From the NCBI GenBank assembly GCA_964016885.1, contig OZ024746.1, positions 39,742,001-39,806,000 of the forward strand: 64,000 nt of DNA, in the 5' to 3' direction. The position numbers and the translations under genes are program-made. Source of the stretch: Eledone cirrhosa (taxonomy: Eukaryota). Below are positions 12,719 through 57,122 of this stretch, one piece after another; the stretch's first letter is position 1, and each line of letters starts with the position of its first letter. The notes below the pieces were generated by a model. That model was not told the origin of the DNA. It was given only the letters and a program-made list of their open reading frames with translations, and did not search any database.

Positions 12719-12848
12719 CGTTATTCTGGGTTGAATCGGAGGTAACCACAGTAAGTAAGGTACTCAATACATAGCAGAGTATAAAGGTTTTAATATAGAA
12801 GAATGAAACAGTTCTAGTCCTGTAGAATCTCATCTATATTAAAACCTA
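12719..12848. mobile_element. Very short PLE-derived hairpin insertion in (TA)n
   Basis: Inverted tail with hairpin at 12762-12780, short inverted arms AGGTTTTAATATAG / CTATATTAAAACCT, and an HHR 3' half GAAACAGTTCTAGTC. Same family as 31985-32160. Confidence 0.7.
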
Positions 12849-13134
12849 TATATATATATATATATATATATATATATATATATATATATATATATTGTTA
12901 TACTTGGGGAGAGTCATATTTGTGTAATATTGCCACAATTAATAACAGAACACACTCACTGTTTGGTTGGTTTTCGCTTTTCGCTTCTGTGTCTTTTATA
13001 TCGGTAATTTAATTTATTCGGTCCTCAATGTTGCCATTGACTGACCAACGGTCAAAAATAATACAGATACAATATAGACACAAATACAAATAGACAATAA
13101 CTATATATAGTTTATCAAAGTTCTTTCGTTGCAC

Positions 13135-13178
13135 CACTGACGATGTTGCAGATGTGCAACGAAAGAACTTTGATAAAC
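13135..13178 (+). ncRNA. Minimal hammerhead ribozyme core, helix I 5' strand truncated at the inversion junction
   Basis: CA-CTGACGA-T-GTTGCA-GATG-TGCAAC-GAAA-G-AA-CTT-TGATAAAC. Confidence 0.6.
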
Positions 13179-13242
13179 TATATATATGTGTTTGTGTCTA
13201 TATTGTATCTGTATTATTTTTTACCGTTGTATTATTTTTTAC

Positions 13243-13341
13243 CGCCGAGGTTGACTTTGCCTTTCATCCTTACGGGGTCGATAAAATAAAGTACCAGTAA
13301 TGCACTGAATAATTGCTGGCCTTGTGCCTAAAGTAGAAACA
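13243..13341 (+). mobile_element. SINE family A fragment nested in the right arm
   Basis: TSD ATTATTTTTTACCGTTG at 13213-13229 and 13342-13358, plus an extra partial TSD copy at 13230-13244. Confidence 0.85.
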
Positions 13342-52486: not shown

Positions 52487-53644
52487 AAAAACCTTGCATA
52501 TAATATATCACTTAGAATTTCTAACCTTTCTTCTAACCAAGATGTATTTGATAAAAATGCGACCTTTTATAATGAAGCTCTAGATAGAAGTGGCCACAAA
52601 AATAGATTAGAGTATATACCTTCTACTAAAAATACTGAAAGCATACAGCATAATATTACCAACAAACACCAAATGAAAAGTACACACCTAAATGCCACCC
52701 ACAGTATACCCCAAAATACTAAATCTTCTAATATAAAGTATAGTAACCCTCAAAAAACTACTCATCATACAACTATAATAAATATTAATAATAAAACTCC
52801 TAATAAAATAGATAAAACACCTAAATCTACAAATATAACTAAAAATAGTTGTGGTGAGATCATTAACATTAATCCTCCTAGTAAAAATCATGATACAACA
52901 TATAAAAATAATAAAAATAATAAACAACATAGAAACCGTAATAGACGAGTTACTTGGTATAATGCTCCTTTTAATTTACAAGTTAAGGATAATATTGCTA
53001 AAAAATTTTTTTATATCCTTGAGAAAAACTTCCCGCCAAACCACAAATACCATCAAATCTTAAATAGGTCTACAGTTAAATTCTCATACTCTACAACAAA
53101 TAACATAAAACAAAATATAAGTGCATATAATGCATATAAATGTAAGAAAACCATAAGTATACCACCAGTACATCAAATTAACAATAATATCTCCTCAAAT
53201 ACAGAATTAACGAAAGGATGTAACTGTAGAAACAAAACAAACTGCCCATTAAAAGGGAATTGTCTGGTTAACAACATAGTCTATAAATGTAATGTTAAAA
53301 CTAAAGATTCTATTTGCTCATATATAGGAGCTACCTCTAACAATTTTAAGACAAGGTATAATACCCACAAACATAGCTTTAAAAATGCCGCACTGGCTAA
53401 TACAACATCTCTAGCAGAAAAAATCAATAGTTATAAAAATAAAAATATAAAATATGATTTGACCTGGAGTGTGCTCAAAAGAGCCACCCCTTATGAAAAT
53501 AATAGAAAGGAATGTAGATTATGTTCCCAAGAACTATTTGAAATAATGAAGTCTAGGGATATCTTATTAAATAAAAGACAGGAATTAATTATATCGTGTA
53601 ATCATAAACTAAAAAAAACATTTAAATATTATAAACCTAATTAA
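52487..53644 (+). CDS. More truncated inverted copy of the same ORF (RT thumb, linker and GIY-YIG)
   Basis: Same translation as the minus-strand copy except PYEN versus PYQN. Confidence 0.9.
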   Translation, partial: KNLAYNISLRISNLSSNQDVFDKNATFYNEALDRSGHKNRLEYIPSTKNTESIQHNITNKHQMKSTHLNATHSIPQNTKSSNIKYSNPQKTTHHTTIININNKTPNKIDKTPKSTNITKNSCGEIININPPSKNHDTTYKNNKNNKQHRNRNRRVTWYNAPFNLQVKDNIAKKFFYILEKNFPPNHKYHQILNRSTVKFSYSTTNNIKQNISAYNAYKCKKTISIPPVHQINNNISSNTELTKGCNCRNKTNCPLKGNCLVNNIVYKCNVKTKDSICSYIGATSNNFKTRYNTHKHSFKNAALANTTSLAEKINSYKNKNIKYDLTWSVLKRATPYENNRKECRLCSQELFEIMKSRDILLNKRQELIISCNHKLKKTFKYYKPN

Positions 53645-56600
53645 TAACATTATTCTAGAATTTAATTTAATTTAAATGTTAGTTAACCTATAAATTTAAT
53701 TTAATTAATATTTTATTACAGATGAGAAAATATTATGTAATCATAAATTTTGAAAAACCTTTAAATATTACTAATATATACTCAGTAATTTAATTTATAG
53801 ATTAATTTTAATTTATTTTAACCTTTTATTATAATTTTTTTTTTTTTTTATTATAATTCTTTTACAGATAAAATATAACAAAATAATATCATGTATCCTA
53901 TGACGGAGAAAGAATTTTTAGTATTATAGACCTAATTAATATACATTTTGGAAATATATTTATTATTTGGTTTTAGTTTTAATCAACCTAAAACTTTAAT
54001 TTTAATTTGCTTAAAATTAGTATCCTTGTACAGACGAATTGCAGAATGTCATGTAATCATAGAATGGGATGTGTTTTGGATATATACCTAGTTAATATAT
54101 TCTGTGCAATTTTTTGAAAAAGATATGTATATCTATATGTATATGTATATGTGTGTGTTGTATGTGTATCTGTATGTATATTTATGTGACTATATATGTA
54201 TATATGTGTGTATATATATATATATATATATATATATGTGTGTATATGTATATGTATGTGTATGTGTATGTATATGTATATGTATGCGTATTAATTTTAA
54301 TTTTTATTTGCATATAATTATATTATGCTATTGATGAAATACAATATCTGCTTTATGTATTGTATACCTAATTAACATATACTAATTAACGTATACTATT
54401 GAAATAAATATATAATTTTTAATTTAGTTAACATATAATTTATATGCTACTACCGATGTAATACTTTATTTTATTTTTATTTGGGTTTCTTTTCCCTATT
54501 ACTAAATTCATCTCCTAATATTGATACCATAACGTTATTAACTTTAATTTAGTTATAATGTAATTAATAATCTACTACTGTTTGACTTCATAATTCTGCT
54601 TCAAATATTATAAACCTAACTAATTTACACCTTGGAACTCAATATGTTGACTATCTTTGGTTTAGTTAACATATGATTAATGGTATACTTTTTTGTTTTG
54701 AGATGCATAGATTTCGTATTTCCTAGCACTGAAAATATGTAAGAACATACATTGAATTAAGATACGGAAAATATTATATGTTTCTTGAAACATATATTTA
54801 CTTTGATCCCCTTCTCCAAACCCCCCCTTTCCCCCATACTATTATCATCTGTTTTTGTAAGCGTATATGTATGAATATATGTGTAGGTGGGTGTCTATAT
54901 AGGTTTTGGTATTTATTTCTAAATATAAAAATACATATATGAGCATGTAAATATGAATGTAAGATTGAGTGTGTATATATGATTGTACATACATATGTAT
55001 GTATATATATGTATATATATGTATTATATATGTATGTGTATGTGAATGTGTGGTATGTATATGTGTATGTATATGTATATATGTGTATGTATGTGTATGC
55101 TTGTATATAGGAATATATATATGTGTATATATGTATGTATATGTATATGCGTGTTTGTATGTATGTGTATATGGGTTCTGTATATATTTGTATGTCTCTC
55201 TATTTATATGTTTATCTTCGTATCTATGTGATATATGTGTGTGTGTGTGCAAGTATGCATATGTATGTGTTTGTATGTGTTTGTATGTGTGTGTGTATAT
55301 ATATGTGTATTTGCGCACACTTACATACACATATATATATATATATATGTGAGTATGTATGTGTGTCTGTGTGTGTGTGTGTGTGTGTATGTGTATATAT
55401 ATATGTATATATATATATATATGTATGTATATATATATAGATATATATATATATATATATATATGTGTATATAGGTGTCTATGTGTGAATATATGTCTTT
55501 ATTCGTATGTGTGTATTTATGTATGTATATATTTATGTGTATGTATGTGTGTGTATGTATGTATGTGTATATATATATATATGTATATATGTATATGTGT
55601 ATATATATATATATATATATATATTATTCTTTATTATTATTGTAATATAACTTATGTGTATATGTCTATAAGTGAGGTTGTGTATGTATATATACTATGT
55701 GTATATATAAGAGTAATGAAATATATATATATATATATATATGTGCATGTCTGTTTTTTATGTGTGTATATATATATATATGTATGTGTATATATGTGTG
55801 TGTATATATATGTGTACGTGTGTGTATGTGGATATATATATATATATATATATATACATGTGGGTGTTTGTATGTGTATTTATGGTGGTATGAGTGTGTG
55901 GATATATATGTTTGTATATATATATGTATATGTATATATATATATATATGAGTCTATGTGTGTGTGTATATATATATATATATATATATATATATATATA
56001 TATGTGTATGTGTGTATGTGTTGCGCGTGAGTGTGTGTGTATTTATATCTTTTTATATGTGTATGTGTATGTTCGTGTAAATGTATGTGTGTGTATGACT
56101 GTATAGGTATGTGTGTATGTATGTATGTGTAGATATCTCTATGTGCGCGTACATGTATGTATGTGTATGTATATCTGTATATGTATATGTACATTATATT
56201 ATATTTATTATATTTTATTGTTTTTATTTTTTTATTTTTCTTAATTTATAGATACATTTATATTAGGCAGTCTGGTCTGACAATCTAATACTGACCCCTC
56301 CCCCCCCCCCCTCCCACCTAATTTCTGTATCTTGATCTTGAAATGTGTGTACCAGTGTTTTTATGTGAGTGACTTAATTTCTATTTGCTTATGATTTTAT
56401 ATCCACATATATAAATGTGAGTGGGGGAGTGTGTGTGTTTGTATGTTCGTGGTTATGTGTATATTTATGCATATACGCACATGTATGTGTGATTATACTG
56501 ATATGTGTGAGTATGAAAAAAATATATTTATATGCTTGACTCCATAAGTATCATTGCGTATCTTATCAGCGCATTAAGCTTACAGAGATATTAACCTTGA

Positions 56601-56780
56601 AATTTTGTGTTTGCATCCATCTTTTTAATATGCACATACAAATTATACACACATTATTGTAAAATATGTGTAAGGTTTTTACATGTATATACACACACCA
56701 AACTGCTTTTAACCCTTTGTGTTTTCATTGGTCAATTTTGAACTGATATTTTGAATTGTTGTTATTATCAATAAATATAC

Positions 56781-56935
56781 TTCATTATTTCTGAAGACGG
56801 CGTATATATGAGTTAGGTATGTATATTTAATCTTGATAATTTGTATAATTTTGTATAATTTTGTACATAGATCTGTTAAATATGCATACCAATTATAACA
56901 CATATATACCCTAGAAACGATCGTTAAATAGTGAA
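56781..56935 (+). ncRNA. Type I hammerhead ribozyme with a 116-nt helix II domain
   Basis: TTCATTATTT-CTGAAGA-...-GAAA-C-GATC-GTT-AAATAGTGAA. It has a 10-bp helix I and a palindromic helix III CGATCG. Confidence 0.75.
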
Positions 56936-57122
56936 CTTTTTTTGTTTAATATAAGGAATTGTTTGTTCATTATTTGTTTAATATTTTATCTTGACTCTGT
57001 ATACCGTTTATTTTTCACCGAAAGTGGATTTTCATTACATCTCTTCTTTCCATGATATCCGGAATACATTGAGTTCTTCATACGGATTGGACACTACCGT
57101 AAACTCTTGGTAGATTTATCTA

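What the first reader, a model, noticed from the sequence alone, without database searches (positions are those of the whole stretch)
12719..57121. Two fixed 3' ends per insertion: the tail-less arm stops about 4-6 nt upstream of the hairpin
Seen: in each hairpin insertion one arm runs through the tail to (TA)n, while the opposite arm meets (TA)n at an internal point. The gap between that point and the RCTC is 4 nt (56989/56994), 4 (31293/31298), 4 (21594/21599), 4 (21817/21822), 4 (12780/12785), 5 (22483/22489), 6 (31581/31588), about 2 (43638/43641) and about 8 (29695/29704). TA microhomology blurs these by a few nt. A solo fragment (32247-32306) also ends at this point. Established: PLEs often insert as partial tandem or inverted copies with a short unpaired extension. 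Inference: the hairpin positions an internal reverse-transcription start, so each target strand primes its own cDNA, one from the RNA end and one just 5' of the hairpin, and the two truncated cDNAs join head to head. An RNA structure that sets the template register would loosely parallel telomerase RNA, and TERT is the sister group of PLE RTs.
Basis: partly seen in the sequence, partly recalled or inferred. Interest (0 to 1): 0.8.

Follow-up and report, generated by a model that had tools for sequence, protein, structure and literature searches.

The report
Twin RNA stems, two priming sites
These Penelope-like jumping genes end at two fixed points, almost always one of each per two-armed insertion, and each point lies a few bases before a copy of the same conserved predicted RNA stem, which likely tells the reverse transcriptase where to start copying on each strand of the target DNA.

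Summary
Observation confirmed; interpretation half right. The insertions are Hydra-clade Penelope-like elements (PLEs) in (TA)n. In the youngest family, 538 short (S) and 503 long (L) junctions account for 1,041 of 1,225 anchors. Of 84 two-ended insertions, 83 pair S with L; none pairs L with L, and the one S+S case is two separate insertions. Eight insertions have arms that share no sequence, which excludes fold-back. The correction: L is not the RNA's end. Tandem copies run through it into the 5' UTR and ORF, and L sits just before a second copy of the same bulged stem (RCTC / 2-nt bulge / GAGY). Two stems lie between hammerhead and start codon in 28 of 46 non-redundant relatives from other organisms, covary only in the 2-nt-bulge register, and are preceded by TAT/ATA peaking 4 nt upstream. 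Likely mechanism (inferred): one RNA, two docking stems, each target strand primes at its own site by short TA pairing, and the cDNAs join head to head. Two internal starts and the one-sided tail are published (Frangieh 2024; Craig 2021); the twin stems, the register and the obligate pairing were not found in print.

The parts
47458..57126 (.). Family A insertion: two head-to-head, 5'-truncated arms of a young autonomous Hydra-clade PLE (6,060-bp unit), S end on the left, L end on the right, in (TA)n
50810..52507 (-). 3' part of the RT + GIY-YIG ORF on the S arm (full ORF 812 aa in tandem copies)
52472..53644 (+). 3' part of the ORF on the L arm
56783..56933 (+). Type I hammerhead motif read by eye (8-bp stem I, CUGAAGA core, GAAAC, palindromic loop III, predicted cut after 56925); base 56784 is the 5'-end hot spot and inferred transcription start
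   Evidence: not detected by Rfam
56986..56989 (+). S point of family A (TAT microhomology with the target)
56994..57074 (+). Stem 1 of family A (ACTC/GAGT, TT bulge, long insert)
57123..57126 (+). L point of family A (ATA microhomology), 137 nt after S; stem 2 starts 5 nt further on in tandem copies and is absent from all window copies
29857..31427 (.). Family B insertion (79% like A), S left, L right; stem 1 at 31298-31377 (+)
20027..21680 (.). Family C insertion, S left, L right; stem 1 at 21599-21623 (+)
21701..22057 (.). Family D insertion, L left, S right; stem 1 at 21758-21817 (-)
22194..22565 (.). Family E insertion, S left, L right; stem 1 at 22489-22512 (+)
31454..31947 (.). Family F insertion, L left, S right; stem 1 at 31543-31581 (-)
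12719..12847 (.). Family G insertion, L left, S right; stem 1 at 12762-12780 (-)
31975..32143 (.).
29170..29840 (.). Family H insertion (old, arms 87% alike), S left, tail right; stem 1 from 29704 (+)
43394..43723 (.). Family I insertion, S left, L right; stem 1 at 43641-43660 (+)
32247..32306 (+). Solo family E arm from the 5'-end hot spot to S
38437..38527 (.). Family E insertion whose two arms share no sequence: 52 nt of tail (-) joined to 41 nt ending at S (+)
4160..4457 (+). Family E arm ending at L; stem 1 at 4385-4408
222..484 (.). Family C insertion, L left, S right; stem 1 at 279-303 (-)

Best explanation
These Hydra-clade Penelope-like elements end at two fixed points, one of each per two-armed insertion, and likely integrate by programmed twin priming in which two predicted RNA stems each position one reverse-transcription start. 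The transcript (5' hot spot, hammerhead, S, stem 1, tail, L, stem 2, start codon) would be bound at both stems, most simply by two RT molecules on one RNA. The GIY-YIG domain would nick both strands of (TA)n; each 3' end would pair with 2-4 nt of UAU/AUA lying 3-5 nt before a stem and prime cDNA. Both cDNAs run towards the RNA's 5' end, stop at random or at the transcription start, and are joined head to head by microhomology or a short insertion. Priming at the 5'-most copy of the sites gives the short inverted solos; priming at the next copy of a tandem read-through transcript gives ORF-bearing arms. Shown: the two ends, their pairing, the order of parts, the conservation and covariation of the stems, the TA register, the 5' hot spot. 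Inferred: protein binding, two RT molecules, one shared RNA, primer pairing, the joining step.
For: Two peaks: 52 S, 44 L, 4 read-through of 100; 538 + 503 of 1,225 genome-wide. Pairing: 43 S+L, 0 L+L, 1 S+S of 44 pairs on C1 (the S+S right arm is an older diverged copy beyond a (TA)n run) and 40 of 40 in a further stretch of C1/C2. Eight insertions whose L arm stops inside the tail, sharing nothing with the S arm; either arm can be the longer. Stem 2 after L in A, C, D, F, I and E, where it was predicted before the search (314 matches, 98 of the 100 listed with the same spacer). Other organisms: two or more stems in 28 of 46 non-redundant 5' UTRs, against 0 of 46 ORF stretches and 6 of 2,250 shuffles; inner pairs Watson-Crick in 68/73, 40/67, 28/43 against 39.3, 17.8, 10.5 permuted, only with a 2-nt bulge; TAT/ATA ends 4 nt before the stem in 32 of 66, against 111 of 1,320 positions further off; second pLTR copies stop 0-8 nt before a stem in 12 of 26 rows. 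5' ends at -203 to -208 in 27 of 96 arms, on an initiator-like TCATT; family G has TATAAATA 30 nt before its 5' hot spot. In vitro precedent for two internal starts and extension of both strands (PMC11167929).
Against: No RNA or protein data for these elements. Family G has no proper stem 2 (only a short GCAC/GTGC hairpin) yet has defined L ends at two sub-sites. Stem 2 of family A spans 118 nt; it folds alone but not in the minimum-energy fold of a 281-nt context. H has a gap of 8-14; C and F have second S sub-sites 6-14 nt away. 23 of 67 units and 30 of 110 ends show one end only (partly fetch limits and exact-match loss; some look truly one-armed). 18 of 46 relatives show fewer than two stems by the script. 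The permutation null ignores relatedness, and the first inner pair may partly separate stem 1 from stem 2. In the Poseidon element the start sites were not homologous to the cut DNA, showed no strand difference, and its start region has no such motif by eye. Arm identity within insertions was higher than between in C and G but barely in E and not in F, so one shared RNA is not shown.
Confidence: 0.7

Rival explanations
1. RNA processing: the stems guide a cut 3-7 nt upstream, so RNAs with real 3' ends at S and at L are copied by ordinary end-primed TPRT.
For: A fixed distance from a conserved stem fits a nuclease ruler as well as a polymerase ruler. No RNA data exclude it.
Against: Cutting would remove the stem from the template and gives no reason for strict S+L pairing. 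The only recognised ribozyme cuts about 64 nt before S. The Poseidon enzyme started internally on intact RNA, although RNA-seq read ends there also fell on the start sites.
Confidence: 0.12
2. DNA-level resolution: the endonuclease recognises the stems in a DNA intermediate and cuts at S on one strand and at L on the other, as the published view of the tail had it.
For: Craig 2021 ascribes the tail to EN-mediated resolution; Frangieh 2024 cites an earlier report that the tail is needed for EN recognition in the D. virilis element. The covariation does not tell RNA from single-stranded DNA.
Against: Both arms often stop at the same promoter-like 5' point and truncate independently, as separate cDNAs would; arms without shared sequence are hard to derive from one cut intermediate; start sites matched the tail ends in vitro.
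Confidence: 0.09
3. One reading: one cDNA starts at the RNA's true 3' end (tail end), the other before a single hairpin.
For: All window copies stop at L, and L is sharp.
Against: Tandem copies continue through L into the 5' UTR and ORF, and a second stem follows L at the same distance in six of seven families with read-through copies and in relatives.
Confidence: 0.05
4. Self-priming fold-back: one cDNA snaps back and copies itself, the second arm stalling at the stem (after the model of Arkhipova 2013).
For: Many junctions are near-perfect palindromes with both arms starting at the same base; the model is in print.
Against: A fold-back arm must lie within the first arm. The S arm reaches further 5' than the L arm in many insertions and shares nothing with it in 8 (also window 38437-38527).
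Confidence: 0.04

Closest known systems
Hydra clade of Penelope-like elements (Craig et al. 2021, PMC8557442)
   Same: C-terminal GIY-YIG, RW, DKT, CxCX5C, CxxC and CxH motifs, hammerhead in the pLTR, (TA)n targeting, tandem and inverted copies, tail at one end. The published Hydra-1_Ajap consensus begins with both stems and ends at S; Hydra-2_Amil and Hydra-2_Ajap show stem 1 (read by eye).
   Different: Unit of 6.06 kb (long microsatellite-rich 3' UTR) against under 3 kb; tails of 71-144 nt against 30-40. The paper names no hairpin (0 hits in main text and supplement) and ascribes the tail to endonuclease cleavage.
PAc, Poseidon-clade PLE of Anolis (Frangieh et al. 2024, PMC11167929)
   Same: Two internal RT start sites that bound the tail; both target strands cut and extended; hammerhead cleavage not needed; predicted dimer.
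   Different: There the starts lie in one AC-rich stem-loop inside the ORF, lack homology to the target and show no strand difference; no per-insertion pairing was reported in the parts read. Here each start precedes its own copy of a conserved stem in the 5' UTR, with a conserved TA register.
LINE-1 twin priming (listing and abstracts; mechanism recalled from Ostertag and Kazazian 2001)
   Same: Both target strands prime cDNA; result is an inverted 5' part joined with microhomology.
   Different: Recalled: in L1 it is a minority outcome, the first primer uses the poly(A) end, the second site is variable and the arms barely overlap. Here it is the rule, both sites are fixed and internal, and arms overlap by up to several kb.
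Telomerase RNA template and boundary elements (recalled)
   Same: RNA structure next to an internal template, short primer pairing to a simple repeat, sister-group RT.
   Different: Telomerase copies a short template repeatedly and the boundary element lies 5' of it; here the stem lies 3' of the start, and copying runs for up to kilobases. No homology was tested.

Membership tests
Penelope-like elements, EN+ | Single ORF with RT and C-terminal GIY-YIG endonuclease | tested here: met
   812-aa ORF with YRDD at 345, VY..YIG at 706 and RYNTH at 717; Pfam gives no significant family for it, some homologues carry RT-type Pfam hits
Penelope-like elements, EN+ | Tandem and inverted copies forming pLTRs, optional tail at one end | tested here: met
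Penelope-like elements, EN+ | Hammerhead motif in the pLTR | tested here: met
   by eye in A, core pattern in 28 of 46 relatives; Rfam does not detect it; activity untested
Hydra clade | RWK-type motif and DKT in place of DKG | tested here: met
   RWR at 36, DKT at 114 (definition)
Hydra clade | CxCX5C linker; CxxC and CxH around the conserved E and N; no CCHH in the EN | tested here: met
   CxCX5C at 672, CxxC at 770, CxH at 798; no CCHH cluster seen by eye in residues 660-812
Hydra clade | Insertion into (TA)n | tested here: met
   96 of 96 S/L ends of family A run into TA repeats
Hydra clade | Generally shorter than 3 kb (descriptive, not diagnostic) | tested here: not met
   unit 6,060 bp in A, about 3.5 kb in E (spacing)
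Hydra clade | Placement in an RT phylogeny with reference PLEs | not tested
   reference proteins were not available as loci; families B-I are assigned only by shared 5' architecture and N-terminal ORF starts
Known Rfam RNA family (for the twin stem) | Match to a curated covariance model | tested here: not met
   no match at E<=1 in 8 relatives; only sub-threshold noise in family A and in the listed window hits
PAc-type internal initiation | RT starts mapped in vitro at the two tail boundaries on uncleaved RNA | not testable with these tools
   genomic ends fit it; needs purified protein

The most novel reading that the evidence does not exclude
A clade-wide, undescribed duplicated RNA element programs a retrotransposon to integrate by obligate twin priming: two RT molecules dock on two stems of one RNA, each aligns one nicked (TA)n strand on a built-in UA register, telomerase-style, and the inverted-repeat-plus-tail anatomy of Penelope-like elements follows directly.
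Probability: 0.6. Interest if true: 0.85.

Novelty: new variant of a known kind. Interest (0 to 1): 0.72.

Why it matters
How Penelope-like elements make inverted pLTRs with a tail on one side is a stated open question (Craig 2021). The data turn it into single-mutation tests: remove or move one stem and one end should vanish or shift. It names a candidate RT-binding RNA motif for the sister group of telomerase RT and a short primer-alignment register on a simple repeat. It also explains tens of thousands of short (TA)n-flanked palindromes in this 3.0-Gb genome (anchor matches: 15,280 for E, 8,099 for C, 29,764 for G and relatives). If two stems suffice in cis, they would define a compact signal for double-ended, structure-programmed DNA insertion.

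Tried and rejected
Rfam scans found no family for the stems or the hammerhead. Pfam and PDB sequence searches gave nothing significant for the ORF. No RNA holder listed; contigs of 3 runs of unrecorded kind show loose TA ends at L but cannot show RNA ends. A homodimer prediction of residues 1-402 returned no answer. MAFFT did not align the 5' strands of the stems, so covariation was counted on anchored positions in a script and no covariance model was built. The antisense control for the motif is void because the motif is nearly palindromic (22 of 46). First end-calling scripts over-extended into TA repeats or took wrong stem positions and one scored an ORF look-alike as L (corrected); arm lengths stall at internal microsatellites near -1,020 and were replaced. 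Family G could not be scored cleanly: its anchor also hits related subfamilies and six copies of one duplicated stretch. Families B and H were not surveyed genome-wide. A cap-derived extra G at 5' ends was looked for by eye and not found consistently. Hammerhead cleavage as the source of S was rejected (site about 64 nt away). The look-up of contigs for single proteins was closed, so relatives come from one metagenome scan and their hosts are unnamed. Two look-ups of earlier findings were empty.
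Full report
What is there. The window is AT-rich (32% GC) animal-type DNA full of (TA)n. Self-comparison shows ten or more short and long inverted insertions flanked by (TA)n. 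The largest, 47458-57126, carries the 3' part of an RT + GIY-YIG frame on both arms. In the 3.0-Gb own genome it has near-identical copies, among them a tandem array with a 6,060-bp unit and an intact 812-aa ORF. The protein has RWR, DKT, CxCX5C, CxxC and CxH, the marks given for the Hydra clade of Penelope-like elements (PMC8557442 section 11). I call the window's families A to I.

The observation. All nine distances are real, with 1-6 nt of TA microhomology making them lower bounds. Each RCTC opens a four-pair stem with GAGY, followed by a 2-nt bulge on the 3' side and an inner stem of variable length. For family A an anchor upstream of both ends has 1,225 exact matches. All of the first 100 listed were fetched: 52 end at S (49 at one base), 44 at L (41 at one base), 4 read through, none ends elsewhere. 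Genome-wide, 538 carry the exact S junction and 503 the L pattern (one of the 100 listed was an S end). Thirty loci each for other families gave: C 14 S, 13 L, 3 read-through; D 22, 7, 1; E 15, 15, 0; F 15, 12, 2 and one interrupted (two C and one F read-through were mislabelled L and are counted). Modal S gaps: C 4-7 (8 of 14), D 4-8 (18 of 22), E 5-8 (14 of 15), F 4-5 (8 of 15) or 6-10 (6 of 15).

One of each per insertion. Among 67 family-A units on C1, 44 show both outer ends: 43 are S+L, none L+L, and the single S+S case joins an A arm to an older diverged arm beyond a long (TA)n run. In a further stretch of C1 and C2, from listed coordinates alone, 40 of 40 pairs are S+L, with 30 ends unpaired. 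Rows (not de-duplicated) for other families agree: E 24 of 24, D 12 of 12, F 9 of 11, C 16 of 19, G 9 of 12; the exceptions involve read-through, interrupted or diverged arms. Either arm can be the longer, and in 8 insertions the L arm stops inside the tail and shares nothing with the S arm, as does window 38437-38527. A fold-back of one cDNA, the self-priming model of PMC3846280 (passages), cannot make these. Both element 3' ends face the flanks, so each target strand can have primed one cDNA (inference). The central junctions show 1-5 nt overlaps or short insertions.

The correction. In tandem copies the sequence runs through L into about 160 nt of 5' UTR and the start codon. Five nt after the A end lies a second stem of the same build, and the same holds in C, D, F and I. 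For E, I predicted it and searched: 314 matches, 98 of the 100 listed with one spacer, folding into the full motif. L gaps to stem 2 are A 5-8, C 4-8, D 2-7, E 3-6, F 3-5, I 4-10. G is the exception: its continuation has only a short GCAC/GTGC hairpin and L falls at two sub-sites. So both ends are internal and each precedes a stem.

The template's 5' end. 27 of 96 A arms stop at -203 to -208 from S, at the A of an initiator-like TCATT that is also the start of hammerhead stem I. G has TATAAATA 30 nt before its hot spot, and E's hot spot lies inside the hammerhead loop rather than at its edge (by eye). I infer a transcription start, and that both arms are cDNAs of a sense RNA; a polymerase stop at the hammerhead is not excluded for A and G.

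Other organisms. One metagenome scan with an alignment of 37 sequences kept the best 80 of 465 stretches, 78 loci. 54 had at least 160 nt upstream and an N-terminal match; 46 were non-redundant. 28 of 46 have two or more stems in the 200 nt before the start codon, 42 at least one, mostly 55-72 nt apart and after a hammerhead core; ORF stretches have two in 0 of 46, shuffles in 6 of 2,250. In 73 stems defined by sequence alone, the inner pairs are Watson-Crick in 68 of 73 (48 C-G, 20 T-A), 40 of 67 and 28 of 43, against 39.3, 17.8 and 10.5 on permutation; bulges of 0, 1 or 3 nt give no excess. The null ignores kinship. TAT or ATA ends 3, 4 or 5 nt before the stem in 23, 32 and 24 of 66, against about 8% further away, the same distance as the junction microhomology in this genome. 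Second pLTR copies in these contigs stop 0-8 nt before either stem in 12 of 26 rows, 4 of them into (TA)n; the rest are contig ends, mismatches or stops elsewhere. Published Hydra consensus sequences show the stems too (supplement parts 52-53 of 59, by eye).

How it most likely works. One RNA carries two docking stems; two RT molecules bind them; both strands of (TA)n are nicked; each 3' end pairs with the short UA register before a stem and is extended; the two cDNAs are joined head to head. One RNA with two sites explains why S+S and L+L are missing, which two independent RNAs would not; it needs the L-primed enzyme to displace the S cDNA where the arms overlap (inference; lack of RNase H in PLE RTs is recalled). 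Results against or short of this: no RNA or protein data; G's weak stem 2; A's 118-nt stem 2 forms alone but not in a longer fold; second S sub-sites in C and F; one-ended units; within-insertion arm identity exceeds between-insertion identity in C (11/657 against 186/3,942 mismatches) and G but hardly in E and not in F. RNA cleavage guided by the stems (0.12) and endonuclease cutting of a DNA intermediate (0.09) remain open.

What is known. PMC11167929 (parts 1-2 of 4 read; figure-only supplements gave little text and the GenBank file could not be read) shows two internal starts bounding the tail, extension of both strands and a predicted dimer for a Poseidon element. PMC8557442 (passages, section 11, supplement parts 1, 52, 53 and a term search) describes a 30-40-bp tail often at one end only and calls for mechanistic work. 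PMC3846280 and PMC4209133 were seen as passages; the 2026 retrozyme preprint as parts 1-2 of 5; L1 twin priming as a listing with abstract openings. Six searches on PLEs returned no paper that describes the twin stems, the TA register or obligate S+L pairing; subscription papers, Repbase notes, figure images and unread parts could hold them.

Verdict. A real feature; a new variant of a known kind. Interest 0.72; confidence in the mechanism 0.7.

Noticed in passing
window 11739-11862, 26843-27015, 28873-29082, 29273-29463, 30967-31105, 41384-41579, 58632-58845, 63073-63256 and others: At least fifteen copies of a 120-200-bp interspersed repeat, probably a SINE, unrelated to the PLE arms.
   Followed up: no
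G000:C2:356030080-356031305 and L313: Family E pLTR-only tandem repeats with a period of about 299 bp and 257 bp that include both stems; they resemble non-LTR retrozyme arrays.
   Followed up: no
L206 (G000:C4:23390233-23393257): The family D read-through copy has both stems but no PLE-like ORF start in the 200 nt after stem 2; D may be non-autonomous.
   Followed up: no
window 21701-22606, 29170-32306; G000:C2:170444640-170445007: Different PLE families and successive insertions pile into the same (TA)n runs, so each insertion leaves new targets on both sides.
   Followed up: partly
window 22102-22171 and 22609-22678: An identical 70-bp direct repeat flanks the family E insertion, each copy next to (TA)n; possibly a long target duplication.
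   Followed up: no
window 13102-13186, 15301-15490, 35140-35230: Further short inverted structures; the first two hold hammerhead-like CTGANGA...GAAA cores and may be more PLE families.
   Followed up: no
L166, L167, L184: Family E head-to-head junctions with runs of about 18-20 T or A between the arms, suggesting untemplated or slipped synthesis at the cDNA ends.
   Followed up: no
window 17153-17659 (+): A 168-aa open stretch that looks like the C-terminal nuclease part of an old non-LTR element (recalled motif).
   Followed up: no
window 60720-62000: A homogeneous 34-bp minisatellite of about 31 copies.
   Followed up: no
L343-L420: The GAGC of both stems is followed by ACT in 63 of 71 cases, a conserved unpaired extension not explained by the stem.
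   Followed up: no
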